Of a stretch of 64,000 nucleotides of DNA, positions 43 through 57,704 are shown piece by piece (within the stretch, counting starts at the first letter, position 1; each line of letters opens with the position of its first letter). The translations under genes were made by a program, and so were the position numbers. Under the pieces are notes generated by a model. That model saw nothing but the letters and a program-made list of their open reading frames with translations. It was not told the origin of the DNA and did not search any database. This DNA is from an uncultured Spirochaetaceae bacterium (lineage in GTDB: Bacteria; Spirochaetota; Spirochaetia; SZUA-6; RPPD01). The stretch spans positions 2,522-66,521 of the forward strand of contig CAZWYY010000013.1 of assembly GCA_964638895.1 (NCBI GenBank). Direction: 5' to 3'.

Positions 43-1323
43 ATGCGGTCATGGAAAAGCATAAAAAGACTCATTCACACGGGAAAACATTTTTGCATAA
101 TTCCGTGGATTCACCTTCATATCACGGGTTTGGGGTATATGGGGTTATGCTGCGGAGAAAAAAAAGGGCCGTACGCCAGGGGTTACGGCAGTGTAAATAA
201 AAATACCTTCCGGGCCCTGTGGCAGGGGGAGGCAATCAGGGAACTGCGCTTGAAAATGTTGAATGATGAAGCGGACCCGCGCTGCCGGCTCTGTTACGAG
301 CAGGAAAACCTGGGGCAGACAAGTCTGCGTTTTTTACATAACCGTTCGTATGCTGAAAAATTTTTGGACTGGTTGTTGAATACGGATGAGTGGGGCTTCG
401 CCCCGGATGCCAAACCGGTGTATTGGGATATACGCTTTTCCAATTTATGTAATTTACGGTGCAGGTCATGCAGTTATACGGCAAGCTCCGCCTGGTTCGA
501 GGACGCCAAAGCCCTGGGACCGGTAAGAACACGGAAAACAGGCGCCGCTGTTATCCGCGTGCAGCATACGGCCAGGCTTTTAAAGGAGCTGGAACCATAT
601 TATTCCTCCCTGGAAAAGGTGATATTTGCCGGAGGTGAACCTCTGCTCATGGATGAAAATTACGATATCCTGGACAACCTGGAAAGGCTGCAAAAGTATG
701 AGACCGAGCTGCATTTCATTACGAATTTAACGACCCTGAATTACAAAGGCCGTGATATCTTAAAGATCTGGAATAAATTCAAAAACCTGTTTGTAACGGT
801 CAGCCTGGACGGCAGCGGGGACCGCTGCGAATACCTGCGTAAGGGTTTGAAGTGGAAAGCGGTATTAAAAAACCTGGAGTCCCTAAAGGAAAACTGCCCC
901 AATGCGCGGTTGAGTATTAATTGCACGGTCAGCGTTTTCAATATTCTGCATATAACGGATTTCCACCGGGAACTGGTGGAAAAAAATTTCATCTCCCCGG
1001 AAATGCTGCAACTATGCTTTCTTTATGAACCCTCATATTACAGCGTAAAAATCCTGCCGTCTGAGATGAAAAAACATGCCATTAAAAAAATAATCACCCA
1101 TATACACTGGTTAAAAACACGGGAGCCTTTTCATAATTTACAGGGATTTAATATGCACGCGGAGCGTTTTTTCCAGTGGGAAAACTGCATCAAATATATC
1201 AGGGAGGGCGACCGGACACATTTGATTCCCAAATTCATAGCCTTCACCGAAAAACTGGATGCGTTGCGGAATGAAAACTGCCTGGAAATTTTCCCGGAGC
1301 TTAAACCCCTGTACACCCTATGA
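43..1323 (+). CDS. Radical SAM enzyme, family A, with an N-terminal Cys-rich SPASM-like region (FCxxPW...GxxxxCC) before the CxxxCxxC core
   Basis: CNLRCRSC cluster with GGEPL downstream; N-terminal FCIIPWIHLHITGLGYMGLCC and CRLC; about 55 percent identical to ORF 3717-5003. Confidence 0.7.
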   Translation: MRSWKSIKRLIHTGKHFCIIPWIHLHITGLGYMGLCCGEKKGPYARGYGSVNKNTFRALWQGEAIRELRLKMLNDEADPRCRLCYEQENLGQTSLRFLHNRSYAEKFLDWLLNTDEWGFAPDAKPVYWDIRFSNLCNLRCRSCSYTASSAWFEDAKALGPVRTRKTGAAVIRVQHTARLLKELEPYYSSLEKVIFAGGEPLLMDENYDILDNLERLQKYETELHFITNLTTLNYKGRDILKIWNKFKNLFVTVSLDGSGDRCEYLRKGLKWKAVLKNLESLKENCPNARLSINCTVSVFNILHITDFHRELVEKNFISPEMLQLCFLYEPSYYSVKILPSEMKKHAIKKIITHIHWLKTREPFHNLQGFNMHAERFFQWENCIKYIREGDRTHLIPKFIAFTEKLDALRNENCLEIFPELKPLYTL

Positions 1324-2330
1324 TGTCTGATATGATTTTTCTGGATCACAGAGCTGAAGAACACAAAAAGAATTTTTTACTCGACTGGTACCTGGAAAAT
1401 CCTTATAACCTGAAAATGAAGGCCGGGAGCTCCTCCGGTTCCCCGACCGAACCCGATGTGGGCAGATATCTGGATGTAAGGGTTATCAGTGAATTTTGTG
1501 ATCGGGTTCTGTGTCATTACGCGGATAAACTCCGGCGTAAAGTGATTTTTGAGTTCAGCGGCGGCGAGCTGACCCCCGTACGTTATCTTCTGCAGATTCT
1601 GGGTTATCTGAAAAACCGTGCATGCAAGAGGTCTCTTGTGGTTAATCATGCCAGAAAGCAGCCATACTGGAAAAAACTCATTGATGAGGTGGATTTCGTT
1701 ACCCTTACCTACCCGTCGGGATATAATCAACCGGAAGCGTACATCGCGCTGATGGAGTACCTTCAGAATCATACGATACTGAGGGCGGCGATAGTAATGC
1801 AGAAAGAACGCTTTGCGGAGTGCCGGGACCTGGCGCAGACCATTATGCGTTCTTTTCAGAATGTTATGCTCAGCATTTTACCACCTGAAGAGGAAAAATA
1901 CCTGACGTACTCCGGGGAAAAGCGTGAACGGCTTTCGGCCCTGCTTGATCTCTGCCGCGCTCACAATGAAAAAAACGGGCTGACAAACAAGTGGTATCGT
2001 GGGGAAATGACCGCTTACACTACCGACGGCGGGACGGGTCATCTGACCCCTGAACAAATTTTGGCCCATCGGCAAAACAACTGGAAATCATGGATGTGCT
2101 GGTCCGGTCTGCATAAAATGGTCGTAGCGCCAGACGGAGACGTTTACCGGGCATGGTGCTTTAATGAACGGTTGGGCAATGTAGGCGGTGACGTCACTTT
2201 TCCGACGGTACCTATCAGCTGTCCGCTGAAACGCTGCGCCGATATAAGGGACATCGCCTTAAAAAGACAAAGCCTTGTGTTATTTAATCCGGGGAATATC
2301 CGGGAACTCGCCGAAATCGGAATTTTCTGA
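1320..2330 (+). CDS. Pseudo-radical-SAM protein (family B paralog lacking the CxxxCxxC triad)
   Basis: Colinear with 2333-3358 (KVIFEFSGGELT vs KILFEFTGGEVT; C-terminal WMCWSGL...RAWCFNERLGN vs WLCWTGL...RAWCMQEQLGN) but no Cys triad; ATGA overlap with upstream gene. Confidence 0.55.
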   Translation: MMSDMIFLDHRAEEHKKNFLLDWYLENPYNLKMKAGSSSGSPTEPDVGRYLDVRVISEFCDRVLCHYADKLRRKVIFEFSGGELTPVRYLLQILGYLKNRACKRSLVVNHARKQPYWKKLIDEVDFVTLTYPSGYNQPEAYIALMEYLQNHTILRAAIVMQKERFAECRDLAQTIMRSFQNVMLSILPPEEEKYLTYSGEKRERLSALLDLCRAHNEKNGLTNKWYRGEMTAYTTDGGTGHLTPEQILAHRQNNWKSWMCWSGLHKMVVAPDGDVYRAWCFNERLGNVGGDVTFPTVPISCPLKRCADIRDIALKRQSLVLFNPGNIRELAEIGIF

Positions 2331-2332
2331 AC

Positions 2333-3358
2333 ATGGAAATGCGAAAACCTTTATATAAAGATAAGACCGTTTTTATTGATCATGAACTGGACAAACATAA
2401 GGATGTGTTTGTGGTCAACTGGAACCTGGGCAACCGTTGTAATTATCGCTGCAGCTATTGCAATGAGACGCTGAACAGCGGGTCGGTCCCCTGGCTGGAC
2501 GCGGAGGCCGTGTTATGCTTCGCCGACAAGGTTATAGCGCATTACTCGGGGAAATTGCATAAAAAAATCCTGTTCGAGTTTACGGGCGGTGAGGTTACCC
2601 TCTATAAGGATTTATACAAGGTATTGAAATATTTAAAAGAAAACGGGTGTAAAACGGAAATCTTATCGAACGCCAGTCCCCGGCTGGCGTTCTGGGAGAA
2701 AATAAAAGACGTGCTGGATTACGCGATTCTCAGTTACCACGCGGAACACTGCGCCCCCGAGCATTTTTATGAGGTAGTGAAATCCGTAAACCGCAATATC
2801 AATGTGCACGTCAACATCATGATGAACAGGAATCGTTTTAACCTCTGCCGGGACCTCGGGGTATCGATTATGGACCTGGGCTCCGGTATTTCCTTAAGGT
2901 TCCAGCCCTTGTTGGAAAAATTGGCCGTAAACGCAAAACTGATCGGATACACCGAAGAGCAGCTGGCGTCCATAGGAATACTGAATGATCGGTGCAGCAC
3001 GGATTTTACCGGCCAAAACAGGTACCGCGGGCGCATGATCCATTACACCAGCGGGGGCGGTGAGTTCATCATGGATCCCCTGCAGTATGTAACGGAAAAG
3101 AAGAATCACTGGAGAGGCTGGTTATGCTGGACCGGATTGGAACAGATCGTTGTTTCACAATGGGGCGAGGTTTTTCGTGCCTGGTGTATGCAGGAACAGC
3201 TAGGGAATATCAGCGGACATATTGAGTTTCCGACAAAGCCGGTGGTCTGTACGAAAAAGACCTGCCATTGCAATATCGACATGCTGTGCAAAAAGCAGCT
3301 GCCGGTTTACCTGGATCCGGCAAACCTGAACCGGCTTAAAAAAATCGGCCTTGTGTAA
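2333..3358 (+). CDS. Radical SAM enzyme, family B, with a C-terminal Cys-containing twitch/SPASM-like region
   Basis: CNYRCSYC, FEFTGGEV, C-terminal CTKKTCHC; paralog of 21303-22325. Confidence 0.7.
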   Translation: MEMRKPLYKDKTVFIDHELDKHKDVFVVNWNLGNRCNYRCSYCNETLNSGSVPWLDAEAVLCFADKVIAHYSGKLHKKILFEFTGGEVTLYKDLYKVLKYLKENGCKTEILSNASPRLAFWEKIKDVLDYAILSYHAEHCAPEHFYEVVKSVNRNINVHVNIMMNRNRFNLCRDLGVSIMDLGSGISLRFQPLLEKLAVNAKLIGYTEEQLASIGILNDRCSTDFTGQNRYRGRMIHYTSGGGEFIMDPLQYVTEKKNHWRGWLCWTGLEQIVVSQWGEVFRAWCMQEQLGNISGHIEFPTKPVVCTKKTCHCNIDMLCKKQLPVYLDPANLNRLKKIGLV

Positions 3359-3422: not shown

Positions 3423-3695
3423 ATGAGTAATAACGGAGACGTAAAGGCAAAGATAAAAGAGCTTTTGGCCGAAGTGACGGGTGACACCGCATTGTCGGGA
3501 AATCTAACGGACTCCTCCGATCTTATCAATGAGATCGGTCTGGACTCGATCCAGATGATCAATTTTATCCTTATGGTCGAGGATGAATTCGGGATCGAGA
3601 TTGATTTTGAGAACTTCGATTACACCAATTTCGAACGCTTTGACTCTTTCTGTCAATTTGTCTCGGAAACCGTGAAGTACCAGACGGTTTCATAA
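3423..3695 (+). CDS. Stand-alone acyl/peptidyl carrier protein (ACP-like)
   Basis: 90 aa, acidic, GLDSIQ phosphopantetheine-attachment-type motif; RBS AAAGGAGAGAA upstream. Confidence 0.65.
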   Translation: MSNNGDVKAKIKELLAEVTGDTALSGNLTDSSDLINEIGLDSIQMINFILMVEDEFGIEIDFENFDYTNFERFDSFCQFVSETVKYQTVS

Positions 3696-3716: not shown

Positions 3717-5003
3717 TTGATGAGAACAAAACGCGACATTCAGCGGCTGTTAAAAAAGGGCAAACATTTTTGTCTGGCGCCGTGGGTGCACCTACATGTG
3801 ACGGGCTTGGGGATCATGGGGTTATGCGCCATGTCGGAGCAGGGTCCCTTTGATACGGGGTACGGCAGCCTGAATACCAATTCATTCCCCGAATTATGGC
3901 AGGGTGAGGCTATCAGGGAGTTCCGTTTGAAGATGCTGGAGGATCAGCCGGATTCCCGCTGCGTCAACTGTTATAAAAGTCGGCTGGGATATACCACGTT
4001 GCGGAATGAGATCAATTCCTATTATTGGGGACATCTTGACTGGGTGGCGCATACGGACGCCTCGGGATACGCCCCGCGGGCGAAACCCATATTCTGGGAT
4101 ATTCGTTTTTCCAACATATGCAATTTAAAGTGCCGTTCCTGTATTGATGTATCCAGCACCGGATGGTATGAGGATGCCAAGGCCATGGGATTTTTAAATG
4201 CACGCCATAACGGGGAACCCATCCAAGGCGTAAAAGACCCTGCCCGGTTGTTGCAGGATCTTGAGCCGTACCTGCCCCACCTGGAAGGCATACGTTTCGC
4301 GGGGGGGGAGCCTTTATTAATGGAAGAGAATTATTATCTCATGCAGAAACTTGACGCCCAGCGCAAATACAACATTCGCATTGAATACGAAACGAATATG
4401 ACGAAGCTGTATTACAAAAAAGACCTTTTATTATCTCTATGGAAAAAATTCAAAAATATCCTGGTATCCGTCAGCCTGGACGGATTAGAGGAGAGGTGCG
4501 AATACCTGCGTAAGGGGCTGAAATGGGAGAAGGTACTGGGGTATATAAATGACATTAAAGCACACTGCCCGGGGATCGGCCTGCGGATTAATTACACGGT
4601 GAGCGCCTATAATATCCTGCACGCCGCGGAGTTTCACCGCACCATGGTGGAAAAAAAGTATATCGGGCCTGAACAGATTCAACTCATCTTCCTTGTTGAA
4701 CCCAATTACCTGAGTATGAAAATACTCCCCCCGGCAATGAAAAAAGCCGCAACCAACAAGCTGATGAATCACATACGCTGGCTGCACAGGGAGTATCCAT
4801 TCCGTTCCACCTGCGGATTCAGGAACTGCGGCGGGCTTTTCATTCAATGGCTTACCTGTATTAAAAAACTGAATGAAGAGGATTGGTCGCACCTGATACC
4901 GCAATTTATCGATTACACCAACAAACTGGATACGCTGCGCAGGGAAAACTGCCTCTCAGTTTTCCCTGAAGTAAACGGGCTTTTCCGGTTGCGGGTCGGA
5001 TGA
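3717..5003 (+). CDS. Radical SAM enzyme, family A (paralog of 43-1323)
   Basis: CNLKCRSC, GGEPL, N-terminal FCLAPWVHLHVTGLGIMGLC; likely ATG at 3720. Confidence 0.7.
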   Translation: MMRTKRDIQRLLKKGKHFCLAPWVHLHVTGLGIMGLCAMSEQGPFDTGYGSLNTNSFPELWQGEAIREFRLKMLEDQPDSRCVNCYKSRLGYTTLRNEINSYYWGHLDWVAHTDASGYAPRAKPIFWDIRFSNICNLKCRSCIDVSSTGWYEDAKAMGFLNARHNGEPIQGVKDPARLLQDLEPYLPHLEGIRFAGGEPLLMEENYYLMQKLDAQRKYNIRIEYETNMTKLYYKKDLLLSLWKKFKNILVSVSLDGLEERCEYLRKGLKWEKVLGYINDIKAHCPGIGLRINYTVSAYNILHAAEFHRTMVEKKYIGPEQIQLIFLVEPNYLSMKILPPAMKKAATNKLMNHIRWLHREYPFRSTCGFRNCGGLFIQWLTCIKKLNEEDWSHLIPQFIDYTNKLDTLRRENCLSVFPEVNGLFRLRVG

Positions 5004-5006
5004 ATC

Positions 5007-6734
5007 ATGGAGCTTGTTAAAAGGAAATTAAAGCAAGGCATCACTTTTTTTATGCCCGTCACGGCCGCCCCCCTGATAAATGAGATCTGGGAAAAGGAGG
5101 TGTACAACCGGGCATACTCGCTGAAGGAAAACGATATTGTGCTTGATGTGGGCGCGAATATCGGTGTTTTTTCACTCTACGCCGCTTCCAGGGGGGCGAA
5201 GGTCTTCAGTTTTGAACCCAACCCCGAAGTCTTTGCTGTTTTACAAGAGAACATCAGGATCAATAACCTGGAAAACAGGGTCACACCTTTGAATATGGCC
5301 CTGGGCGATCATAAAGGTAAAGCGACCTTATTCATGGCGCTTTCGGAAAAGATATACGCGCCGGGTTCGGCTTCCATTATGAGGGATTTTATTGATGATC
5401 TGGATAAAAGGTACGGCAAGAATGATTATACCGCCTTCACGGTTTCCTGCCTGCGGTTGGATCAGGCATTGGATTTACTGCGCCTTAAGATGGTTGATTT
5501 TATGAAGGTGGACTGCGAGGGAGCGGAGTACGACATCATGCAAAGCGTTCCGCAGCACAGGCTGGGAGAAATCCGCCGTATCGCCATGGAGATCCATATC
5601 GCCTGTTACTCCCAAAAAGAGTTGTGCCGGATTTTGCGGCAAAAGGGATACGTAGTCAACGAGTTCGAAAAAGCGGATGAATCCTCCCTGACCGGTTTTT
5701 TGTACTGTACCCATTCCGCAATGGGGATAACCGCACCCGGCAAACCGGTCGCGGTTTTGTCGGTCAGGCAGGGGCAAGACATAGATAAAGATTATGTTTT
5801 TTGTAATCAAAGCGTTATTTTTGACGGCAGCCGGAGTTTTATCACAAACGGCGGAGAGCGGAAACCCGTTTTTAAATGGAGCATAGATGAAATTAATGCC
5901 CGCAGCCAAGCTGAAAAATGGAGTTACAGGTTTACGGAACCGGGTTATCACCGGGTGACGCTCTGCCTGCGCCATGACCGTAAATCGGATTCGGCCGAAA
6001 AAGAACTCATGGTTTTACAGGCTGATTATTTTCGGGGCGGCGTTGATCATTACCTTTCACCGCTTAGGGAAGATACGGGAAGGAGTGATGCGAAATGTGT
6101 GACCTTTCATGACGGAGTCAAATTCTCAATCCGGAGTGATCACCTGCCGGCAACCAGGTTCGGACAGCTCTTGATCGAACTTGAAATTAAAAGTTTCCCC
6201 GGTGAACCGCTCTCCGGATTACAGGAGCAGCTGCTCTTATTTGAAATGAACGGCCGGAAGATCGTCCTCGGTGAGCCGAACGAAAAAATACTTATGGATA
6301 CAATTCTTTACGGCATCGACGCCGTTTTTACCCTCACTCCTTATATTTACCGGGGTCAAAGGGAGATCAGCATCAAATGGGGAATACCGGACACGATTTC
6401 CAACATACAAGAGGGAAACAAACCGGACACGGCTCCGCCGGCCGGGGAGACCGGTTTGTATCTTTTCCGGGGCGAGAAGCTTTTTACCATCGGCGTGGAT
6501 ATGTTTCCCCCGGACTGGACCCCGCGGGAAATTGTTATCGATATCAAGCCTTCACAGTACCGGGGCAAAAAAACCGCTTTGTCCGGCTTTCTGTGTTACG
6601 GAAAGCGGGTTACGGCATTATCCGGCTGGAAAGATGGGGCGCGCATAAAAAAGGGCGAGTGGGAGGATGATTTCTCATTCTCGATCAACCTGCCCACGGA
6701 GAATTGTCTCAGGCTGACATGGTGGCCCGAATGA
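5007..6734 (+). CDS. FkbM-family SAM-dependent methyltransferase fused to a ~330-aa C-terminal domain of unknown function
   Basis: LDVGANIGVFSLYAA, FEPNPEVF; C-terminal domain ends TWWPE as in paralog 23308-25038. Confidence 0.65.
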   Translation: MELVKRKLKQGITFFMPVTAAPLINEIWEKEVYNRAYSLKENDIVLDVGANIGVFSLYAASRGAKVFSFEPNPEVFAVLQENIRINNLENRVTPLNMALGDHKGKATLFMALSEKIYAPGSASIMRDFIDDLDKRYGKNDYTAFTVSCLRLDQALDLLRLKMVDFMKVDCEGAEYDIMQSVPQHRLGEIRRIAMEIHIACYSQKELCRILRQKGYVVNEFEKADESSLTGFLYCTHSAMGITAPGKPVAVLSVRQGQDIDKDYVFCNQSVIFDGSRSFITNGGERKPVFKWSIDEINARSQAEKWSYRFTEPGYHRVTLCLRHDRKSDSAEKELMVLQADYFRGGVDHYLSPLREDTGRSDAKCVTFHDGVKFSIRSDHLPATRFGQLLIELEIKSFPGEPLSGLQEQLLLFEMNGRKIVLGEPNEKILMDTILYGIDAVFTLTPYIYRGQREISIKWGIPDTISNIQEGNKPDTAPPAGETGLYLFRGEKLFTIGVDMFPPDWTPREIVIDIKPSQYRGKKTALSGFLCYGKRVTALSGWKDGARIKKGEWEDDFSFSINLPTENCLRLTWWPE

Positions 6735-6752: not shown

Positions 6753-8087
6753 TTGGCCGGTAAATTAGTATTAGGCACGTTCAACGCGGAAAAATATTGG
6801 CGGGAAGACGGATTGGCCTGTCTGCCCGAGTTGTATGACGCGGGCGCGGCAAAGATCGTGCGCGCCATGGACGAGCTGTTGTTTCCCCTTTGTGAAAGGG
6901 GTGATGTGTTACTTACCCGTTTTAAGATGGACCCTGCCTTTAAAGACTACCTTAACAGGCTGGGTTTTCAATTTGTGTCAAACAATTTTAACCTGGAGGA
7001 AATCACTGCGGCGGCCGCGGGGCCGGGCGGGGGCTGTATTGAGGAACTGCTGAACCGCAAACGCCGTGACCCGCGACTCTTGGAGTTTCTGGGACCGGTT
7101 AGCTCCTTACACCCGTACGCCGTGCTCCCCGGTACGACGGAGACCGTAAAAAACTTCGGCTGGGAGGAGTGCCACCCGCCTTACGAGGCCGTGAAAAAGG
7201 TAAATTCCAAGGAATATTCCAATGAACTGAACGAGCGGATCGGTGTAAAAAAGTACGGAAAAATAATTCACAGTACGGACGAATATCATGAGACGGCCGC
7301 CCGGATAGGCAACGGAAGGGGGTTCATCATCAAGGACCTGTACGGCGTATCCGGTAAGGGGAACCTGCTTGTCGCCGGGCCCTCACTGCAGAAAAGGATC
7401 GGAAAGCACCTTGCCGCGCAGGAAGAGAAGGGTCTGGCCGTCCGCTTTCTGATGGAACCGTATTTTGACAAGGTGTATGACTTTTCCTGCCAGCTTTACA
7501 TCGGCAGGACGGGGGATTCCCGCATAGTTTCGATACAGGAGATCAAGAATTATCTCTTTACCTACATCGGTTCCCTGAGCGCCGGAGATGATTTTATCTG
7601 TTTTCTTAAGGACCGGGGATACTTCGAACTAATGCAAAAGGTTGCGGAAGAACTTTACGGCGACGGATACTGCGGCGATGTCTGTATAGACTCCATGATC
7701 CTCAAGAACGATGAGCTGGTTCCGGTGGTTGAGATCAACGCGCGTAAATCCATGGGACTGATAAATTATTACATCGACCGCTTCCTGGCTGGATATTCCG
7801 CGCGCGGATATTTTGTTTTTTTTACCGCTGTTTGTGAAGGTCGGACCGGTTTTCACGACATCCTGGAAAAGCTGGAACATGAAGGCATCCTCTTCACCGC
7901 CGCGCGCGGTCGCGGCGTACTGCCGTTGTCGGCCAATGCCCTGTTCGTGAACCAGGACGAGGAGAAGAGTTACAAAGGAAGATTTTATTTTTCCGCGGCC
8001 GCGGGCACCCAGCATGAAAGGCAGGGGCTGGTGGACCGGACCGTCAATGCCTTTACCTCGATGGGATTCCGTGTTTATTACCGCTAA
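6753..8087 (+). CDS. ATP-grasp domain ligase (TTG start)
   Basis: GFIIKDLYGVSGKGNLLV glycine-rich loop, VVEINARKSMG C-terminal motif; RBS GGAGGG upstream of TTG. Confidence 0.5.
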   Translation: MAGKLVLGTFNAEKYWREDGLACLPELYDAGAAKIVRAMDELLFPLCERGDVLLTRFKMDPAFKDYLNRLGFQFVSNNFNLEEITAAAAGPGGGCIEELLNRKRRDPRLLEFLGPVSSLHPYAVLPGTTETVKNFGWEECHPPYEAVKKVNSKEYSNELNERIGVKKYGKIIHSTDEYHETAARIGNGRGFIIKDLYGVSGKGNLLVAGPSLQKRIGKHLAAQEEKGLAVRFLMEPYFDKVYDFSCQLYIGRTGDSRIVSIQEIKNYLFTYIGSLSAGDDFICFLKDRGYFELMQKVAEELYGDGYCGDVCIDSMILKNDELVPVVEINARKSMGLINYYIDRFLAGYSARGYFVFFTAVCEGRTGFHDILEKLEHEGILFTAARGRGVLPLSANALFVNQDEEKSYKGRFYFSAAAGTQHERQGLVDRTVNAFTSMGFRVYYR

Positions 8088-8098
8088 AGGAGACATAA

Positions 8099-9243
8099 TG
8101 AAAGAAGACAAGGTTACTATTTTGGCCTCGGGCGTGGCCTTGGGAGTATATATCCCGGCCCTGCTTGTCAATTATCAGCTGCGGCGGCGCGGTGTGGCGG
8201 CTGAGGTTGTTGTTCTGGAAAATCTTTTGCTGCCTGAAAAAAAGGCGAAGATACCCGCCAACAAGCAGGCCTTTCACAGGAGTTTCCGTGTCGCCCTAGC
8301 CGGACAAAAAATGGCTGTCGACCTTTGGCCTCATTATGATAAGAAGGCGCTGGCCGGGTTATTCGACGCTTGGCAGGGGGAGGGGAGGAGGAACTTTATT
8401 GTTTTTTCCGGGTTCTGGATGTCCGTGCTCCGTGAATATATCAACACGGTTCCCGGAAACGGAATGAACGTGGAGATTGTGCACATGGACGCGGATATAT
8501 CCGCCTCGTGGCGGCTTTTCAGGCGGGAGACTACGGGGTTTAATAATGTCTGGCTGTTTGACGGGCGGAATAAGAAGGTGGACTATGAACTCAGGATCGC
8601 GCAGCATCCCCCCGTGCCGTACCGAAGCAGGCCGGACCGTTACGTAATTCACGGTGGCGGTTGGGGAATGGGGAACTACCGGGAAAAAATCGCGGAATTG
8701 GAAGAAGGCGGACTGAAGCTTGATATCGTTGCCTATGAAGCGGAGGAAACCGAGAACCTTAAAGCGGGCCACAGGAGTTTCATGATTGATCCGTGCTGGT
8801 CACCCTGGATAAAGAATAATAACGATGAACACGAGTTTCCGCCCTTCGGTCAAATAACCGGCGGCCGGGCCCCTGTATTTAAAAACAAACAGGAGTATCA
8901 CGATCTTTTTGACGTGATCCGCCTGAGCAGGGCGATTATCAGCAAGCCCGGCGGCGCTACCCTGGCGGATTCCCTGGCTTCAGCCACGCCCCTGGTTATA
9001 CTGGAGTCTTTCGGGAATTATGAGCAACAAAACGCTGAACTATGGGAGCACCTTGGTTTCGGTATCCGGTATGATGATTGGAAAACGGCAGGTTTCTCAG
9101 GGGGTATTCTGGAAAAATTTCATTATAACCTTTTATCTGCCGCGGGTTTGGCCGTGGACTATGTCAGTGATTATATAGACAGGAATTGCGGCCGCGCGCC
9201 CGGGGTCTTGGGACCGGGAAGGTCGCTTCACGGCGTAAATTAA
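8099..9243 (+). CDS. GT-B glycosyltransferase, MurG/MGDG-synthase (GT28)-like
   Basis: VIHGGGWGMGNY and KPGGATLADSLASATPLV motifs; RBS AAGGAGACA; start moved from ORF-track 8014 to ATG 8099. Confidence 0.5.
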
Positions 9244-16260: not shown

Positions 16261-17681
16261 AACATAAAAAACAGAAGACCAGGCTGTTGCTGCTTCGCCC
16301 TTTTTATGGGATCACGGTTCACGGTGACATGCACGGCGACCTGGGGATCTCCGATCACCATCCGCATATTTACCCGGATCTGTCCTTTATTTACGCGGCA
16401 ACCATCGCCAAACACTCCCGGGTTACAGACCTGCACGTTATCGACGCCAATTCCGGTGAGTTTATGCCGGCGGCCGTATGGACGCAGATGGAGGATTATT
16501 ATGATATCATTATAATAAAAACCGCGGCGCCTACCGTGCGGTATGACCTGATGCTCGCAAAAGAGATTTTGAAGCGTTATCCCTTTTCCAGGGTCATACT
16601 GGCGGGGCAGGCGGCGAATCTCGTCCGAGGCTGGATAGAACGTAATCTGCCGGGCATATATGACATAGCGCGCGTTCCTTTGGAGTATTACGTACATAAC
16701 ATGATTTACGGTAGCCAAGAAATCTGTATGAATGATCTGCCCAGTCCTGATTATTCCCTGTTTCCCTATGAGAAACTCAGGGATATGGACGGGAATTTAC
16801 GCGGCTCGCTGTATACAAGCCGCGGCTGCGCGGTAGGCTGTTCGTACTGCCCGTATTCGCATTTTTACGGGCGTAACATGGAGTTCCGCTCCCCTGAACT
16901 GGTGATAAATGATATCAAACATCTTCTGGCTTTGGGTTTCAAGAAAATTCTTTTTCGCGACCAGTATTTTTCAATCAATCCGAGAAGAACCGAAGAGATC
17001 TGCCGGATGATTCTAAAACAGGGACTCAGGTTCAACTGGGAGTGCGAAACGCGGCTTGAGTCGCTTACGCCGAAGCTCATTAACCTTATGACGACAGCCG
17101 GAATGGATATGGTGTGTTTCGGCGTGGAGACCGCCTCACCGCAAACCCTGGAAACATACAACAGGCCCCCGGTTGACGAGGAAAAACTGGTGAAACTGAT
17201 CAATCACCTGCACACCAGGAAGGTAATGACCATAGCCTTTTACATGATTGGTTTTCCCAGGGACACATGGAGCATAATCCGTCAGACCTATGAGCTTGCC
17301 GTGCGCCTGGCCAGCAACAGCGCAAAATTTTCAATCTTCTCACCCTGTACCCCCCTTGTATATCCCCACCTGGAGCTGACCCCCGCGGAATTCACGCCCC
17401 TTGAGAATACCATGACCACCAATCCCTGTAAAAACCTGAGCAGAAAGGAGCTTGAGTTTCTGGTGGACCATTTGAACAATCTTTACCACACGGACATTGT
17501 GCGAAAAGAATCACGCAAAAAAAACTACATTGAGGTTATCTATAGGTTTCACGTTATGCACCAGATGAGATATCACAGCCTGGTAAAATACCTTAAAAAA
17601 AAGCTTGCGGAAGATAAAATCTTCAATATTGCCGTAAAAAAAGTCCAAAGGAGAAGAGCAAATGCATACAAGAGGATTTGA
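16248..17681 (+). CDS. B12-binding-domain radical SAM enzyme (class B-like)
   Basis: N-terminal LLLLRPFYG Rossmann-like region, then YTSRGCAVGCSYCPY. Confidence 0.6.
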   Translation: MQALKHKKQKTRLLLLRPFYGITVHGDMHGDLGISDHHPHIYPDLSFIYAATIAKHSRVTDLHVIDANSGEFMPAAVWTQMEDYYDIIIIKTAAPTVRYDLMLAKEILKRYPFSRVILAGQAANLVRGWIERNLPGIYDIARVPLEYYVHNMIYGSQEICMNDLPSPDYSLFPYEKLRDMDGNLRGSLYTSRGCAVGCSYCPYSHFYGRNMEFRSPELVINDIKHLLALGFKKILFRDQYFSINPRRTEEICRMILKQGLRFNWECETRLESLTPKLINLMTTAGMDMVCFGVETASPQTLETYNRPPVDEEKLVKLINHLHTRKVMTIAFYMIGFPRDTWSIIRQTYELAVRLASNSAKFSIFSPCTPLVYPHLELTPAEFTPLENTMTTNPCKNLSRKELEFLVDHLNNLYHTDIVRKESRKKNYIEVIYRFHVMHQMRYHSLVKYLKKKLAEDKIFNIAVKKVQRRRANAYKRI

Positions 17682-18831
17682 AAGCAACAAGGGAACCATT
17701 AAAGGCCCCAAGAAGATGCAGGGCAGGTACTGCCTGCAGCCGTTTACCAATATTGATATTCACTCCAACCATGGGGTCCGCTGCTGCAGTGAGTCCTGGA
17801 TGCCGTCGTGGATCGGGGATTTTTCCACGCATAACCTGAAGCAAATTTGGAACGCGCCCGCCATCCAGGCCATACGGCAGAGTATTTTGGACGGAAGTTA
17901 TTCATTTTGTGATTGGCATCAATGTCCTTTTTATTGCAATGACTCCTATTACCTGTACTCGCGGGAGGAGTTGGAGAATCCGCAGGGCCTTGGAGGGGTG
18001 GACGCATACAGACTTGCGAAATACGCGCCATGGATCAGGTATATTCTGCAGGAAAAAACCGAACTCGACATCCTGCCCGCCAATTACAACCTGGCCTATG
18101 ATGAAACCTGTAACCTGGCCTGCCCCAGCTGCCGCAAAAAAAGGGTGGCTTTCAGGAAGGGGGCGGAGTATACCCTGCGCTTGGGGATTCATAACAAGCT
18201 GTTAAAGGAGGTTAAGGAGAACGGGTTTGAACATATCGGACGCTTTAACCTGACCGGCTCCGGTGAACCCTTTGTGTCTCGTATTTTCACTGATTTTCTC
18301 TATAACTTTGACGGCGGGAAGTATCCGCGCCTGGATATTAATATTCAATCCAACGGGGTTCTCTTTACTCCCGCGGCCTGGGCCAGGATGAAAAAAATCC
18401 ACGTTAATATCAATGAGGTTATTATTTCATTGGACGCCTGCTGTGCCGAGACCTATAAAAAAATCCGGGTAAACGGCTCCTATAAAAAACTCCTGGTCAA
18501 CATTGAATTCCTGGCCGCGCTGCGCGCACAGGGCAAGATCCGCCGTTTTATGCTGGCTTTTGTGGTACAGCAAAAGAATTACCGTGAAATGCCCCGGGCC
18601 GTAAAAATGGCGAAATACTACGGCGCGGATCTTTTTATCTTTAATCTGTTAAACGACTGGAAATCGTGGAGTCCCCGGGATTATGAGGCAAACGCTGTGT
18701 GGAAGAGTTTTCATCCGGAATTCGAGGAGTTTCTGGGGGTTTTAAGGGATCCCGTGTTCAATGACCCCATTGTTGACCTAGGTAACATGATCGAGTATCG
18801 CAATAGGGCCTATTCTTATGCCGGGGCTTAA
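17662..18831 (+). CDS. Radical SAM enzyme with an N-terminal Cys-rich region (related to family A)
   Basis: CLQPF...HGVRCCSESW...CDWHQCPFYC, then CNLACPSC and LTGSGEPF. Confidence 0.6.
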   Translation: MHTRGFESNKGTIKGPKKMQGRYCLQPFTNIDIHSNHGVRCCSESWMPSWIGDFSTHNLKQIWNAPAIQAIRQSILDGSYSFCDWHQCPFYCNDSYYLYSREELENPQGLGGVDAYRLAKYAPWIRYILQEKTELDILPANYNLAYDETCNLACPSCRKKRVAFRKGAEYTLRLGIHNKLLKEVKENGFEHIGRFNLTGSGEPFVSRIFTDFLYNFDGGKYPRLDINIQSNGVLFTPAAWARMKKIHVNINEVIISLDACCAETYKKIRVNGSYKKLLVNIEFLAALRAQGKIRRFMLAFVVQQKNYREMPRAVKMAKYYGADLFIFNLLNDWKSWSPRDYEANAVWKSFHPEFEEFLGVLRDPVFNDPIVDLGNMIEYRNRAYSYAGA

Positions 18832-20249: not shown

Positions 20250-21315
20250 TAATTATTTAGACGCGGAGCAAACCGAGGAAGAAATTAAGCGCGGGTTCGA
20301 GGAAAATATCTCCGCTTACCTGGACTGCCGCTATGCCGTCCCGGTTGTCAATGGCACGGTTGCGCTTGAGGTTGCCCTGCGCGGGCTGGGCCTCTCACGG
20401 GGAGACTGCGTTATTGTGCCTGATATCTCCTTCATCGCCACGGCCACGGCCGTGGCCAATTGCGGCCTGGTGCCGGTGTATGCGGATGTAAGTCCCACAT
20501 ACTTCGGACTTACCCTGGAAACACTGCAAAACAGGAATTGTTCCGGGGTAAAAGCCGTGGTGCTGGTACATTTTTCCGGGTTTGTCAACAGGGAGCTGTT
20601 TGAGATAATCGAATACTGTTACAGTAACGGCCTGGCCCTGGTGGAAGACTGCGCCCAGGCGTTTGCCTGTACGGCCCACGGTAGAAAGGTGGGCACCTTC
20701 GGCGACGCGGGCGCGTTCAGTTTTCAATCCTCCAAAAGTATAAGCGCCGGTGAAGGGGGGCTTGTCTGCACCGACAAGCGGCACCTGGCCGCGCAGTTCC
20801 AGGCCGTTTCCGACTGGGGGATGAGCCCCTTGTTTAAGCGCCGAAAACTTGCGCTTGCCAGCAGCAACTTCCGGCTCAGCGCCCTGCAGTGTTATGTTTT
20901 GGGCCGGAAACTCGAACATATCGACAGCACGGTAGCGGCAAGACGCGAACGCTGCGCCCGGTTGGAAGACGCCTGCCGCGAACTGGGCCTGGAACACTGT
21001 CTGCCTGCCCCCAGACCGGAATATTTTGACTGCCCCTTCTTTTTTCCGCTGAAAAGCGCGCGCAAACTTAACAGCATAGAGCCCCGGGAAGAGTCTCCCC
21101 TGCATAGATCCGCCATAGTAGTCGCCATTCTGGAACGCTTTTACCCGGATCTGCTGAAGCGGTATTATGAACTCAATCCTCCCGGGGTCATGTCGGAATT
21201 CGCCGGCAACAAGGTTATTACTGATATTGATTTTATCAACATCAGCCAAACATGGAATCTGCCCGCGGATCAGGTAGTGTCTGCGTACAAGGAGGCGGTG
21301 TTATGTCGGAAATAA
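20233..21315 (+). CDS. DegT/DnrJ/EryC1/StrS-family PLP-dependent (sugar) aminotransferase
   Basis: VNGTVALEVAL, GDCVIVPDISFIATA, FSFQSSKSISAGEGG (PLP Lys). Confidence 0.75.
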   Translation: MKSAINNYLDAEQTEEEIKRGFEENISAYLDCRYAVPVVNGTVALEVALRGLGLSRGDCVIVPDISFIATATAVANCGLVPVYADVSPTYFGLTLETLQNRNCSGVKAVVLVHFSGFVNRELFEIIEYCYSNGLALVEDCAQAFACTAHGRKVGTFGDAGAFSFQSSKSISAGEGGLVCTDKRHLAAQFQAVSDWGMSPLFKRRKLALASSNFRLSALQCYVLGRKLEHIDSTVAARRERCARLEDACRELGLEHCLPAPRPEYFDCPFFFPLKSARKLNSIEPREESPLHRSAIVVAILERFYPDLLKRYYELNPPGVMSEFAGNKVITDIDFINISQTWNLPADQVVSAYKEAVLCRK

Positions 21316-22325
21316 TGGCCCTGCGGCACCAGTTTGAAAAAACCGAAAATATTCTGCTTGTAGACTGGTGTGTCAGCAATATCTGTAATTTCGCCTGCTC
21401 GTATTGCCCGGAACATACCCACGCGGGTACGCATCCGTTTATGCCAATTAAAAATATCCTACTGTTTTCGGACCGGATTGTGGATCACTACGTAAAGAAA
21501 CTGCATAAAGAGGTCTATTTTCTTTACACGGGTGGCGAGGTGACCTTGTATAAGGATTTTATTCCCCTGATCCGCACTCAAAAAGAGAACGGCCACCGTG
21601 TGAGTATCAGTACCAATGGATCGCGCAGGTTGTCCTTCTGGCAGGAGGTTAAAAAATACCTGTTCCAGGTAAGCATGAGCTACCACGATGAGTATACGGA
21701 CCTGGATCATTTCATCAATGTAATAAACCTGATAAAGTCGGACACCTATACCCATGTTAATATCATGGTCCAGCCCGACCGCTTCCAGCAGTGTCTGGAC
21801 GCGGCCTACCGGGTGCTGCATGAAACCGATGATATCACCATCGATCTCCAGATTGTGTTGAGGGATTTCATCGAGCCTTACCCATATACAAATCAGCAGC
21901 GCAGGCTCATCATCGCGGTGGGTAAGGAAATCAACGGCAAACTGAAACTAAAACGCAAGCGGGACAGTTACCGCGGGCTGATGAAACTTGTGTTTCGTGA
22001 CGGCTCACACGAGTTGGTAAAACCCGGTGATCTTCTAACAAGAAATTTGCACGCCTGGCGGGGCTGGAGCTGTTACATTGGTCTTGAGATCCTGGTGGTT
22101 GATCTGAACGGTGATATCTACAGGAGCTGGTGCGGCGACGCCGGTAAAATCGGGAATATTAATGATGAACAGATACACTTTCCCACAAAACCGCATATCT
22201 GCGGCAGGGCCTATTGCAGCGGGGGGATCACCGACACCATGGTCACAAAAATCAAGGAGGCATGTAATGAGCAGCCGGACGACAGCCGGAGTGTTCTCGC
22301 CGTTTACAATCAGGGACGGGTTTGA
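21303..22325 (+). CDS. Radical SAM enzyme, family B (paralog of 2333-3358)
   Basis: CNFACSYC, YTGGEVTLYKDF, C-terminal WRGWSCYIGL...CGRAYC; AAGGAGG RBS before ATG 21303. Confidence 0.7.
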   Translation: MSEIMALRHQFEKTENILLVDWCVSNICNFACSYCPEHTHAGTHPFMPIKNILLFSDRIVDHYVKKLHKEVYFLYTGGEVTLYKDFIPLIRTQKENGHRVSISTNGSRRLSFWQEVKKYLFQVSMSYHDEYTDLDHFINVINLIKSDTYTHVNIMVQPDRFQQCLDAAYRVLHETDDITIDLQIVLRDFIEPYPYTNQQRRLIIAVGKEINGKLKLKRKRDSYRGLMKLVFRDGSHELVKPGDLLTRNLHAWRGWSCYIGLEILVVDLNGDIYRSWCGDAGKIGNINDEQIHFPTKPHICGRAYCSGGITDTMVTKIKEACNEQPDDSRSVLAVYNQGRV

Positions 22326-23307: not shown

Positions 23308-25038
23308 ATGAGGACCGTGACAAATAAACTGGACAATGGCTATGAGGTGGAGATGGACCCCGGTGCTGAGTTCATTGTGCATGAGATCTGGGACGATTTG
23401 TTTTATGACCGTGATTACCACATCGGACGCGGTGATATAGTCCTGGATATCGGGGCGAATATAGGCATATTTTCGCTTTTCGCCGCATACCGCGGGGCCC
23501 GGGTCTATGCCGTGGAACCGGATGAACATAACTACAATCTATTGTGCTCGAATATTGAAAGGAACGGACTCGGCCGCCGGATTCATCCCATTTTCTGCGC
23601 TGCCGCCAAAAATGACGGTACTATAGCGCTTTACATCCCCCCTGCGGAAAAATTATGCGCGTCCGGCATGATAACAACCTCGCTTGCCCAGATAGAGAAG
23701 CTTACAGGGCATGACACTTCCGGGGTCAGTGTAACCAGGGTGAAATCCGTCTCACTCCCCGGCCTGCTGAGGCAAATAGCGGAAGCGCACATCTCCCTAT
23801 TAAAACTGGATACCGAAGGCGCGGAACTGGATATTCTTCTCGGAACGGACGCGGACGATCTGCGATCCGTGGAGTGCATAGTCATGGAGACACACTCATC
23901 CTATACCGAGCGGGAGCTTTATCACCGGGTGCGCAGGCTGGGATTCGACGTTATCAGTTATGAAAAGCGCACCGGACCTTTCTTAACCGGCTATCTTTAC
24001 GCAAAGAAGGCCCGGGCGGGAAGGCCTGCCGGTCGTACCAGGCCCGTCGCCATCCTCACTGTTCCCGGGAGTGTGGATTCCCCGAACAGTGCCATCGCAG
24101 ACGCCGGACAGAGTTTTTCAACCGTAAACCCGGATTGCTGCGGTCTCGGTTACCGTTTCAGCGTGGATGGGAAGGAGGAACCATTTTCCACCGATCCTGT
24201 CCGGCATATACATTTTAAGAAACCGGGACTTCACCGCATTTCAGTTGATATTCTGGAAGGCGGTATTGACAACTGCAGGCAGAAAAACATGCCGGCCGGT
24301 TTCGGCAGCGACCGGGCCGAGAAAACAGTATGGGTTTTCACCGAGCACTACGGACCGTCCCCGCGCGCCCTGGCCCTGCCCGAACTGGGGAAAAAAAAGG
24401 AGTTTACCGTTTCCGCCCAAACAGAGTTTTTCATACCGGCAGAGAACATTCCCAAGCAATGGGATTATGACGCCCTGGGTATCGGTGTAGGTCTATTGGA
24501 CACGCCCGAAAACCCGGAAGAACCGCACATCAGCCTGCTACATAACGGGGTGCGGACCAAAATCACCTCAAGTTACCAGGAGGTCATTATTCCCGCTTTT
24601 CCCAGGGGGCGCGATCTTTGTTTTTCTTTCGAAAGCGCGTGCAATTTCCGGGTATGCCTGCATTGGTTTGCCAGAGTCGGGGCGGAGGCTCCCGTGCTTC
24701 CGGTGCTTGATTGCCGTAACAGCCGAGGACAGCTTCTTGGAGAAAAATCATCGGCGCATATCTGCCTGTTCGAAGGTGAGGGCCGTTTGGTGGTCGCGCG
24801 GGAGTTATTGCCGAAAACATGGAATCCGGTCTGTGTAAAGATCTGTTTTTCGGTGCACGAGCGGGATACCACAGGAAAGGAACTGGAGGGCGAACTGGTG
24901 TTCAAGGGGCGTTGTTTCACATTACTGGGTTGGTATAAGGAAATTAACTTCAGCGGGGAGGAGATCCGTAACAAAATGGAGTATATGGTGCGGGTGCCGT
25001 GCGCCCGTGTCTATCAGGTTACCTGGTGGCCCGAATAA
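23308..25038 (+). CDS. FkbM-family methyltransferase with C-terminal unknown domain (paralog of 5007-6734)
   Basis: LDIGANIGIFSLFAA, VEPDEHNY; C-terminus YQVTWWPE. Confidence 0.65.
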   Translation: MRTVTNKLDNGYEVEMDPGAEFIVHEIWDDLFYDRDYHIGRGDIVLDIGANIGIFSLFAAYRGARVYAVEPDEHNYNLLCSNIERNGLGRRIHPIFCAAAKNDGTIALYIPPAEKLCASGMITTSLAQIEKLTGHDTSGVSVTRVKSVSLPGLLRQIAEAHISLLKLDTEGAELDILLGTDADDLRSVECIVMETHSSYTERELYHRVRRLGFDVISYEKRTGPFLTGYLYAKKARAGRPAGRTRPVAILTVPGSVDSPNSAIADAGQSFSTVNPDCCGLGYRFSVDGKEEPFSTDPVRHIHFKKPGLHRISVDILEGGIDNCRQKNMPAGFGSDRAEKTVWVFTEHYGPSPRALALPELGKKKEFTVSAQTEFFIPAENIPKQWDYDALGIGVGLLDTPENPEEPHISLLHNGVRTKITSSYQEVIIPAFPRGRDLCFSFESACNFRVCLHWFARVGAEAPVLPVLDCRNSRGQLLGEKSSAHICLFEGEGRLVVARELLPKTWNPVCVKICFSVHERDTTGKELEGELVFKGRCFTLLGWYKEINFSGEEIRNKMEYMVRVPCARVYQVTWWPE

Positions 25039-46237: not shown

Positions 46238-46286
46238 GCATAAAGCCTATCATACGGCGGTGGGCTGTGCAAGACGCCGAGGACCG

Positions 46287-47594: not shown

Positions 47595-47606
47595 GCTATA
47601 ACCTCC

Positions 47607-51084: not shown

Positions 51085-51093
51085 AACGTCCGG

Positions 51094-52263: not shown

Positions 52264-52319
52264 ACCGTGATACCTCCTTTTTTTGCACGTATGATAATAC
52301 TTTTTATCTGATCTTCCAA

Positions 52320-52751: not shown

Positions 52752-52763
52752 GTTTGACTCCTT

Positions 52764-54655: not shown

Positions 54656-54659
54656 GCGC

Positions 54660-57619: not shown

Positions 57620-57704
57620 GATCTTATTCGAAACAGTACGACATGTAAAGGCCGTTGCCAGAATAATAATTACCTGATACCCTGCGTACGAAAGGGGTGT
57701 TGCC

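What the first reader, a model, noticed from the sequence alone, without database searches (positions are those of the whole stretch)
1320..3358. Pseudo-radical-SAM paralog translationally coupled to its intact radical SAM twin
ORF 1320-2330 is colinear with 2333-3358 and with 21303-22325 (shared FEF(S/T)GGE(L/V)T and C-terminal W(M/L)CW(S/T)GL...RAWC...LGN), but the N-terminal CxxxCxxC cluster is missing (region reads LDWYLENPYNLKMKAGSS). The two genes are 2 nt apart. Cys-less partners of radical SAM enzymes are described for some peptide-modification systems; here it may act as a substrate-binding or scaffolding subunit.
Basis: partly seen in the sequence, partly recalled or inferred. Interest (0 to 1): 0.7.

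Follow-up and report, generated by a model that had tools for sequence, protein, structure and literature searches.

The report
Conserved dead paralog beside radical SAM enzyme
Next to a working radical SAM enzyme gene sits a sister gene that lost its catalytic iron-sulfur site but has been kept intact beside that enzyme in at least seven distinct loci (at least one of them from a different phylum), so it is probably a non-catalytic helper subunit, not a broken gene.

Summary
ORF 1320-2330 is a full-length paralog of the radical SAM (rSAM) gene 2333-3358: 33% identity, E 7e-73. It lacks all three CxxxCxxC cysteines. No upstream extension or frameshift can restore them, and the gap to the twin is 2 nt.

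It is not a decaying pseudogene. The same Cys-less protein lies directly upstream of the twin's ortholog in seven distinct loci. The Cys-less proteins form one clade (95% bootstrap). dN/dS is 0.32, against 0.16 for the twin.

Elsewhere in the family, about ten cluster representatives fuse an intact half to a degenerate half that keeps the same four cysteines.

Best reading: a non-catalytic partner subunit of the twin, similar to a "prozyme", that may still hold an auxiliary metal or Fe-S site. The physical complex and the pathway's chemistry are inferred, not shown.

The protein matches no Pfam, NCBIfam or PHROG model. I rate it a new variant of a known kind, of moderate interest.

The parts
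1320..2330 (+). Pseudo-rSAM gene (336 aa). It is a Cys-less paralog of the adjacent rSAM. It keeps GGE (residues 81-83) and four C-terminal cysteines (C260, C280, C301, C306).
2333..3358 (+). Intact rSAM twin (341 aa) with CNYRCSYC, GGE, and five C-terminal cysteines that include the CHC motif.
2328..2335 (+). Stop-start junction TGA-AC-ATG. The gap is 2 nt and only a weak SD-like sequence (cggaa) lies upstream.
1320..1323 (+). ATGA overlap between the stop of the upstream N-terminal-twitch rSAM gene and the start of the pseudo-rSAM. No SD motif lies upstream.
43..1323 (+). N-terminal twitch-domain rSAM (NF033640, 366 bits). It is also the upstream neighbour of the pseudo in L006 and L003, but not in L011.
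3423..3695 (+). Acyl/peptidyl carrier protein (PP-binding). A carrier protein follows the twin, directly or after the FkbM gene, in the window, L006/L001/L002, L003 and L057.
5007..6734 (+). Long FkbM-family methyltransferase (575 aa, with an uncharacterised C-terminal half). It co-occurs with this rSAM family in L001/L002, L003, L006, L049 and L051. A second copy lies at 23308-25038.
21303..22325 (+). Third, intact paralog (340 aa, CNFACSYC) in the same cluster. It has no Cys-less partner and lacks the C-terminal tail shared by the pseudo and the twin.

Best explanation
ORF 1320-2330 encodes a functional but catalytically dead paralog of the rSAM enzyme encoded 2 nt downstream.

Proposed history: an ancient duplication in the twin's lineage produced a copy that lost the three cysteines holding the SAM-cleaving [4Fe-4S] cluster and most conserved barrel-lining residues. 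That copy kept three things: the rSAM partial TIM-barrel fold, a twitch-like C-terminal domain with four invariant cysteines (a likely auxiliary Fe-S or metal site), and a C-terminal tail found only in these two proteins.

Proposed function: it is made together with the twin through stop-start coupling and most likely forms a heterodimer with it, as a non-catalytic subunit. Possible roles are stabilising the twin, presenting the substrate (perhaps a carrier-protein-bound intermediate), or passing electrons through its remaining metal site. The pathway is rSAM-rich and also encodes a carrier protein, an ATP-grasp ligase, FkbM methyltransferases, glycosyltransferases and an ABC-2 exporter.

Shown here: homology, motif loss, fold, conservation, purifying selection and invariant synteny.

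Inferred: the physical complex, the metal site, the role in catalysis and the pathway's product.
For: 1. Homology and loss: E 7e-73 to the twin. All three cluster cysteines are absent in all six full-length pseudos.
2. Not an artefact: an in-frame stop lies upstream and no Cys codons occur in any frame.
3. Conserved pairing: a Cys-less ORF lies directly upstream of the twin ortholog in the window, L006 and its close relative L001 (about 92% protein identity, counted as one locus), L003, L007, L011 (a Bacillota MAG), L052 and L057.
4. The six pseudos are monophyletic (95% NJ bootstrap). Their branching matches that of the twins, and pairwise identities correlate with r = 0.76.
5. Purifying selection: between L001 and L006, dN/dS is 0.32 for the pseudo and 0.16 for the twin. 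ORFs remain full length at 22-39% mutual identity.
6. Selective retention: of 96 family-conserved columns, 19 are kept in 6/6 pseudos, among them W258, C260, G263, G273, R277, C280, G286, P295, P298, C301 and C306. SxHxE, H155, the MM pair of HxNxMM, QPL and HCN are largely lost (N157 and M160 survive in 4 of 6). The pseudos also have their own conserved signature: LEN, ELTP and R155.
8. The family tends to act in pairs. Ten cluster representatives are fusions of 631-661 aa with an intact N-half and a degenerate C-half that keeps only the same Cys4 module. In L049 two intact paralogs flank the FkbM gene, and in L051 two intact paralogs are adjacent.
9. The tail KKQxPvyxxPxNIxxLxxxG occurs only in pseudos and twins.
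10. Arg112, conserved in 90% of the family, is Pro in 5/5 twins but kept in 5/6 pseudos. This hints at complementary degeneration.
11. Coupling signals.
Against: - No direct evidence of a complex. Multimer modelling was not available, and the natural-fusion model was too poor to read an interface (pLDDT 61, pTM 0.49).
- The third paralog in the same window, and most of the roughly 950 family representatives, have no Cys-less partner. A partner is therefore not a general requirement of the family.
- GGE is lost in 2 of 6 pseudos, so ligand binding at the old SAM site is not conserved.
- Deep nodes that place the pseudo clade inside the twin clade have only 41-50% bootstrap.
- dN/dS rests on 55 substitutions in a single pair of loci.
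- The four cysteines could hold zinc or be purely structural.
Confidence: 0.55

Rival explanations
1. A neofunctionalised, free-standing protein. The Cys-less paralog works in the same pathway but not as a subunit of the twin. It could be a binding or chaperone protein for an intermediate, a small Fe-S electron carrier, a regulator or inhibitor of the twin, or a non-radical enzyme that reuses the barrel.
For: - The pseudos have their own conserved residues (LEN, ELTP, R155, D308-x-RDI-xx-KRQ), which suggests new constraints and not mere retention.
- They evolve about twice as fast as the twins: mean identity 30% against 51%.
- Cys-less relatives P0227 and P0240 occur with no adjacent paralog, so a Cys-less member can exist alone.
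Against: - Adjacency to the twin is invariant in every locus with enough sequence, including a minimal Bacillota locus with none of the other cluster genes.
- The shared clade-specific tail and the natural intact-degenerate fusions point to a physical pairing.
Confidence: 0.3
2. Still a radical SAM enzyme. The protein binds a SAM-cleaving cluster through non-canonical ligands, for example the C-terminal cysteines or cysteines supplied in trans.
For: - GGE is retained in 4 of 6 pseudos, and four cysteines are invariant.
- Non-canonical cluster motifs exist in Dph1-Dph2 (PMC11048331).
Against: - The only cysteines conserved across the six pseudos are the four in the C-terminal domain. These are also present in the intact enzymes in addition to CxxxCxxC, so they belong to a separate site.
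- Most barrel-lining residues conserved in intact members are lost.
- The cluster-loop region is the only low-confidence part of the model.
Confidence: 0.07
3. A decaying duplicate (true pseudogene) or an assembly or sequencing artefact, with no function.
For: - The catalytic motif is lost.
- Evolution is faster than in the twin.
- No family model matches.
Against: - Intact ORFs of 329-350 aa occur in seven distinct loci from independent assemblies at 22-42% mutual identity.
- dN/dS is 0.32.
- 19 family-conserved columns are invariant in 6/6 pseudos.
- The model is confident.
- The same sequence was recovered in an independent Logan assembly.
Confidence: 0.03

Closest known systems
TIGR04347 pseudo-SAM/SPASM protein family (NCBIfam)
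   Same: A curated family of rSAM-like proteins named for being 'pseudo' radical SAM. It shows that Cys-less rSAM relatives are a recognised kind.
   Different: The window's pseudo gives no hit to it at E <= 0.01. The intact twin scores only 28 bits against a cutoff of 525. The lineage, architecture (no Pfam SPASM hit) and context all differ.
Dph1-Dph2 heterodimer (eukaryotic diphthamide synthesis)
   Same: Two paralogous SAM-radical subunits form an obligate heterodimer (PMC11048331, PMC10669111). That the two subunits have unequal catalytic roles is my recollection, not taken from those abstracts.
   Different: Both Dph subunits keep Fe-S clusters. The fold and the chemistry (an ACP radical) are non-canonical and unrelated to the TIM-barrel rSAM fold. 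Here the partner has lost its SAM cluster entirely.
Prozyme-type pseudoenzymes (e.g. trypanosomatid AdoMetDC prozyme; from my own knowledge, not checked here)
   Same: A catalytically dead paralog, kept under selection, that pairs with the active paralog.
   Different: Activation of the twin by the pseudo is not shown here. The enzyme class is different.
Twitch/SPASM rSAM enzymes BlsE, MoaA, SkfB, PqqE and DesII
   Different: All of them have the CxxxCxxC cluster and are catalytic. Sequence identity is 10-13%. Pfam SPASM does not match the pseudo or the twin.
The twin's own unnamed rSAM family (about 956 representatives at E <= 1e-3, common in Bdellovibrionota MAGs)
   Same: The pseudo is a diverged member by descent. 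It shares the overall fold, GGE and the C-terminal module.
   Different: Nearly all full-length members have CN(Y/F)xCSYC. Only about nine full-length Cys-less proteins were seen, six of them forming this paired clade.

Membership tests
Radical SAM superfamily (PF04055) | CxxxCxxC (or a variant three-Cys) motif that binds the SAM-cleaving [4Fe-4S] cluster | tested here: not met
   The motif position reads NPYNLKMK-AGSS. 0 of 6 pseudos keep any of the three Cys. No alternative conserved three-Cys set exists outside the C-terminal module.
Radical SAM superfamily (PF04055) | Match to the Pfam Radical_SAM profile above its gathering score | tested here: not met
   No Pfam family at E <= 0.01. The twin scores 35 bits and the third paralog 43.6 bits, against a cutoff of 29.5.
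Radical SAM superfamily (PF04055) | Partial (beta/alpha)6 TIM-barrel fold | tested here: met
Radical SAM superfamily (PF04055) | GGE motif that binds the SAM methionine amino group | tested here: met
   GGE lies at residues 81-83 of the window's pseudo. It is kept in 4 of 6 pseudos and replaced by GAE and GVG in the other two.
TIGR04347 pseudo-SAM/SPASM | Score above the NCBIfam cutoff (525 bits) | tested here: not met
   No NCBIfam hit at all for the pseudo.
SPASM/twitch rSAM subgroup | C-terminal Cys-rich domain that binds an auxiliary Fe-S cluster | tested here: inconclusive
   Pfam SPASM is not detected. However, four cysteines (C260, C280, C301, C306) are invariant in 6/6 pseudos and in the family. 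The spacing C-x12-G-x6-C resembles the twitch hairpin. The closest folds are twitch/SPASM enzymes. Metal content cannot be tested here.
Twin's rSAM family (unnamed) | Full-length homology to family members | tested here: met
   E 7e-73 to the twin. A profile of the pseudos retrieves 956 family representatives.
Prozyme-type pseudoenzyme partner | Paralog of the active enzyme with its catalytic residues lost | tested here: met
Prozyme-type pseudoenzyme partner | Maintained by purifying selection and co-inherited with the active paralog | tested here: met
   dN/dS is 0.32. The pair is found in seven distinct loci. The trees are congruent.
Prozyme-type pseudoenzyme partner | Forms a complex with the active paralog and activates or stabilises it | not testable with these tools
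   Only single-chain prediction was available. The natural-fusion model was low confidence.

The most novel reading that the evidence does not exclude
The pseudo-rSAM keeps a redox-active auxiliary Fe-S cluster in its twitch-like Cys4 domain and is an obligate second subunit of the twin. It would supply electrons or a substrate-binding half-site; the retained Arg112 that the twins have lost is a candidate residue.

This would define a previously undescribed two-subunit class of twitch-type rSAM enzymes, seen in three forms: an intact plus intact pair, a pseudo plus intact pair, and an intact-degenerate fusion.
Probability: 0.3. Interest if true: 0.7.

Novelty: new variant of a known kind. Interest (0 to 1): 0.5.

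Why it matters
Radical SAM enzymes are usually annotated and studied as single polypeptides. This is a conserved dead paralog that always accompanies its active sister, and fused versions exist in the same family. Together they suggest that some twitch-type rSAM enzymes work as asymmetric two-copy units.

In practice, anyone trying to reconstitute the twin, or to express this rSAM-rich gene cluster in another host, should co-express the gene annotated as 'hypothetical protein'. Annotation pipelines currently miss it entirely: it has no Pfam, NCBIfam or PHROG match, and NCBI calls the L011 ortholog 'hypothetical protein'.

It also offers a natural experiment on which parts of an rSAM scaffold are needed for non-catalytic roles.

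Tried and rejected
- Word-indexed homolog search with the pseudo alone found only itself. With an alignment of three pseudos it found only three proteins.
- A GTDB genome scan with pseudo-derived patterns gave 250 pattern matches but no relative. The source genome was not recovered by the twin-based scan either, so the organism is unidentified. Flanking genes suggest an anaerobic bacterium.
- A metagenome scan returned only three distant relatives at 26-27% identity, in L008-L010. I did not inspect them further.
- The 341-aa no-Pfam ORF next to the rSAM genes in L049 was suspected to be a pseudo. Its translation is unrelated.
- The ORF upstream of the Cys-less orphan P0227 was suspected to be a partner paralog. 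It is unrelated.
- Structure prediction of a natural fusion (P0177, 10-sequence alignment), run to read the inter-half interface, gave pLDDT 61 and pTM 0.49, which is unusable. The tools return no coordinates, so I could not check the geometry of the Cys4 site.
- The afdb50 fold library was unavailable.
- A PDB sequence search gave only generic rSAM-core hits, such as 8VPO (TigE in the PDB title).
- Literature searches for pseudo-rSAM partners, BzaA/BzaB, STM4011 and the FkbM/ACP/twitch combination found nothing specific.
- PHROGs gave no hit for any Cys-less member.
Full report
**1. The observation**

The window carries two adjacent same-strand ORFs, 1320-2330 (336 aa) and 2333-3358 (341 aa).

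- BLASTP aligns them end to end at 33% identity, E 7e-73.
- Both also align to a third ORF at 21303-22325, at 27% (E 7e-39) and 34% (E 2e-66).
- The twin and the third paralog carry CNYRCSYC and CNFACSYC, and both match Pfam Radical_SAM.
- The first ORF reads NPYNLKMK-AGSS at the aligned position and matches no Pfam, NCBIfam or PHROG model.
- The junction is TGA-AC-ATG, a 2-nt gap. The first ORF's ATG overlaps the stop of the upstream gene as ATGA.

- The nearest in-frame stop upstream of 1320 is TAA at 1302-1304, so the ORF cannot be extended.
- No Cys codon exists in any frame between 1360 and 1456, so a frameshift cannot hide the motif.

The same protein sequence was also recovered from an independent Logan assembly.

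**2. A conserved gene, not a decaying copy**

The twin belongs to a sizeable rSAM family. All 120 listed relatives have CxxxCxxC.

I looked up the closest twin orthologs on their contigs. Each one has a Cys-less ORF with no Pfam match directly upstream:

| Locus | Pseudo | Twin ortholog |
|---|---|---|
| L006 (and close relative L001, ~92% protein identity) | P0122 | P0004 |
| L003 | P0124 | P0003 |
| L007 | P0123 | twin N-terminus |
| L011 (Bacillota MAG) | P0126 | P0005 |
| L052 | P0125 | P0008 |
| L057 | pseudo C-terminus | P0007 (4-nt overlap) |

With the window, that makes seven distinct loci.

- In an NJ tree the six full-length pseudos form one clade (95% bootstrap). Its internal branching mirrors that of the twins.
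- Pairwise identities of pseudos and twins across loci correlate with r = 0.76. The pseudos diverge faster: mean identity 30% against 51%.
- Between the closely related loci L001 and L006, Nei-Gojobori dN/dS is 0.32 for the pseudo and 0.16 for the twin. Selection is relaxed but clearly purifying.
- A profile search of 1.84 billion cluster representatives found 956 family members. About nine are full-length and Cys-less: P0001 and P0122-P0126 (the six pseudos of this clade, P0122 coming), plus three unrelated orphans, P0227, P0240 and P0241.

**3. What was lost and what was kept**

I examined the 96 alignment columns that are at least 85% conserved among intact members.

Lost in the pseudos:
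- all three cluster cysteines (0 of 6 retained);
- most of the strand-end motifs SxHxE and QPL; in HxNxMM, H155 and M159 are lost, while N157 and M160 survive in 4 of 6;
- the HCN that follows the last cysteine.

Kept in the pseudos:
- GGE, in 4 of 6;
- a C-terminal block in 6 of 6: N253, W258, C260, G263, G273, R277, C280, G286, P295, P298, C301, C306.

Other points:
- The pseudos have their own conserved residues: LEN in place of LGN, ELTP, R155, and D-x-RDI-xx-KRQ.
- A C-terminal tail (KKQxPvyxxPxNIxxLxxxG) occurs only in pseudos and twins, not in the rest of the family.
- Several derived states are shared by pseudos and twins (Q208L, G278A, D270S). This supports an origin by duplication within the twin lineage, although the deep tree nodes have only 41-50% bootstrap.
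- Arg112 is conserved in 90% of the family. It is Pro in all five twins but kept in five of six pseudos. This is a single-column hint of complementary degeneration.

**4. Fold**

The AlphaFold2 model of the pseudo, built on 122 sequences, is confident (pLDDT 89.2, pTM 0.88). The only disordered stretch is residues 31-50, where the cluster loop would be.

- The spacing C260-x12-G273-x6-C280 ... C301-x4-C306 resembles the twitch/SPASM hairpin motif (my knowledge of that family).
- The retained four cysteines therefore plausibly bind an auxiliary Fe-S cluster or another metal. This is an inference, because no coordinates were available to check the geometry.

**5. The family tends to work in twos**

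Three arrangements were seen:

1. Two intact paralogs in one locus. One is 482-487 aa with a C-terminal extension and the other 325-336 aa. In L049 they flank the FkbM gene inside an NRPS cluster. In L051 they are adjacent.
2. Pseudo plus intact, as in this clade.
3. Single polypeptides of 631-661 aa (ten cluster representatives). The N-half is intact. The C-half is a degenerate copy with no CxxxCxxC. It is detectable over most of its length in P0177, P0187 and P0250, and in all ten it keeps just the same four-cysteine module.

The fusions are a Rosetta-stone-type argument that an active copy and a degenerate copy form one functional unit. A model of a fusion was too poor to show an interface.

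**6. Context**

The pair sits in a 27.7-kb same-strand cluster with nine intact rSAM genes:
- three with N-terminal twitch domains (two match NF033640 strongly; the third is assigned from Pfam SPASM plus Radical_SAM only);
- one B12-binding type, and a second resembling it in size and domain position but with no B12-binding hit;
- one SPASM type.

The cluster also encodes:
- a carrier protein;
- an ATP-grasp ligase-like protein (closest PDB match 8YND);
- two long FkbM methyltransferases;
- a DegT aminotransferase and an OYE-type flavoenzyme;
- GT2 glycosyltransferases, a GT-B-like protein and an ABC-2 exporter.

L006 is largely syntenic. A carrier protein follows the twin, directly or after FkbM, in the window, L006/L001/L002, L003 and L057. 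The Bacillota locus L011 is minimal: regulator, pseudo, twin, aldo-keto reductase. The only invariant is therefore the pseudo-twin pair itself.

In the window, the pseudo has no Shine-Dalgarno motif and the twin only a weak one (cggaa). The carrier protein gene, the first twitch rSAM and the third paralog have clear ones. No promoter-like or terminator-like site lies between 1094 and 3500 on the + strand. This fits stop-start coupling along the run twitch-rSAM, pseudo, twin.

**7. Interpretation**

The best-supported reading (confidence about 0.55) is a non-catalytic partner subunit of the twin, analogous to a prozyme. It may retain an auxiliary metal site and may help to bind or present a substrate, possibly a carrier-protein-tethered one.

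Rivals:
- a free-standing neofunctionalised protein in the same pathway (0.3);
- a non-canonical rSAM enzyme that is still active (0.07);
- a functionless pseudogene or artefact (0.03).

The remaining 0.05 covers readings not listed here.

Points against an obligate partnership: the third paralog and most family members manage without a Cys-less partner, and no complex could be tested.

**8. Comparison with known systems and novelty**

- Cys-less rSAM relatives are a recognised kind (NCBIfam TIGR04347, 'pseudo-SAM/SPASM'), but this protein does not match that model.
- Paralogous heterodimeric SAM-radical enzymes exist (Dph1-Dph2; PMC11048331, PMC10669111), but both of those subunits keep clusters and have a different fold.
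- The clade is rare, with five 50%-identity clusters among 1.84 billion representatives. It is unannotated: the L011 ortholog is 'hypothetical protein' NLW46627.1.

I rate it a new variant of a known kind, with moderate interest (0.5). It is useful to rSAM enzymologists and to anyone trying to reconstitute this cluster, but it is not a new category.

Noticed in passing
window 1-27722: A single same-strand cluster with nine intact rSAM genes plus the pseudo. The rSAM genes are at 43, 2333, 3717, 9186, 15280, 16248, 17662, 21303 and 25063. It also has two 575/576-aa FkbM methyltransferases that both end in WWPE, an ACP, an ATP-grasp-like protein, DegT, OYE, two GT2s and an ABC-2 exporter. The product is unknown. 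The cluster starts at the window edge, so it may extend upstream.
   Followed up: partly
P0177, P0187, P0198, P0215, P0216, P0221, P0222, P0224, P0226, P0250 (alignment A6): Proteins of 631-661 aa that fuse an intact rSAM of this family to a degenerate second copy. The second copy lacks CxxxCxxC and retains only the four-cysteine C-terminal module. I did not examine their genomic context.
   Followed up: partly
L053:5001-5912 (P0227); L055:5001-5918 (P0240): Independent Cys-less members of the family lie in 357-376 kb contigs filled with short ORFs that have no Pfam match. In L055 a Macro-domain gene is adjacent. The contigs may be jumbo-phage-like. There is no adjacent paralog.
   Followed up: partly
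L001:9530-9975: Compared with L006 (27-nt gap), L001 has about 444 extra bases between the pseudo and the twin. They consist of a tandem array of GTCCAAAGTCTAAAA units, then an array of TTCGACCTTCGAC-like units. Both are flanked by the inverted repeat AGTAACTATTCAGT / ACTGAATAGTTAC, which looks like a small palindromic insertion element.
   Followed up: no
L049:252-13897: An intact short paralog (P0006) and a 487-aa intact paralog of this rSAM family, with a long FkbM methyltransferase, sit between NRPS genes (C-PCP-C and C-A-PCP-C) and a free PCP. This links the family to carrier-protein chemistry.
   Followed up: partly
window 43-1323, 3717-5003, 17662-18831: Three paralogs of the N-terminal-twitch rSAM type: a SPASM/twitch domain at the N-terminus and the rSAM core after it. 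The first two match NF033640 at 366 and 335 bits; the third was scanned with Pfam only. The first overlaps the pseudo's start codon.
   Followed up: partly
window 6753-8087 and 8014-9243: The listed ORFs for the ATP-grasp-like protein and the GT-B-like protein overlap by 74 nt. The true start of the second is probably further downstream and was not resolved.
   Followed up: no
window 44523-57838 (- strand): The region holds AMMECR1, a C39-peptidase/TPR protein, three phenylacetate-CoA-ligase-like paralogs (AMP-binding_C_2), a branched-chain amino-acid ABC transporter and an indolepyruvate-ferredoxin-oxidoreductase-like gene. A Memo-like gene lies just upstream on the + strand (43592-44497). 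This gene set is typical of an anaerobic amino-acid or aromatic-acid degrader. The organism was not identified.
   Followed up: no
L012-L048: Intact members of this rSAM family are frequent in Bdellovibrionota MAGs (Bdellovibrionales, Bacteriovoracaceae, Pseudobdellovibrionaceae). Several tblastn matches span about 1300 nt for a 1000-nt query, which suggests insertions or the longer 482-487-aa form.
   Followed up: no
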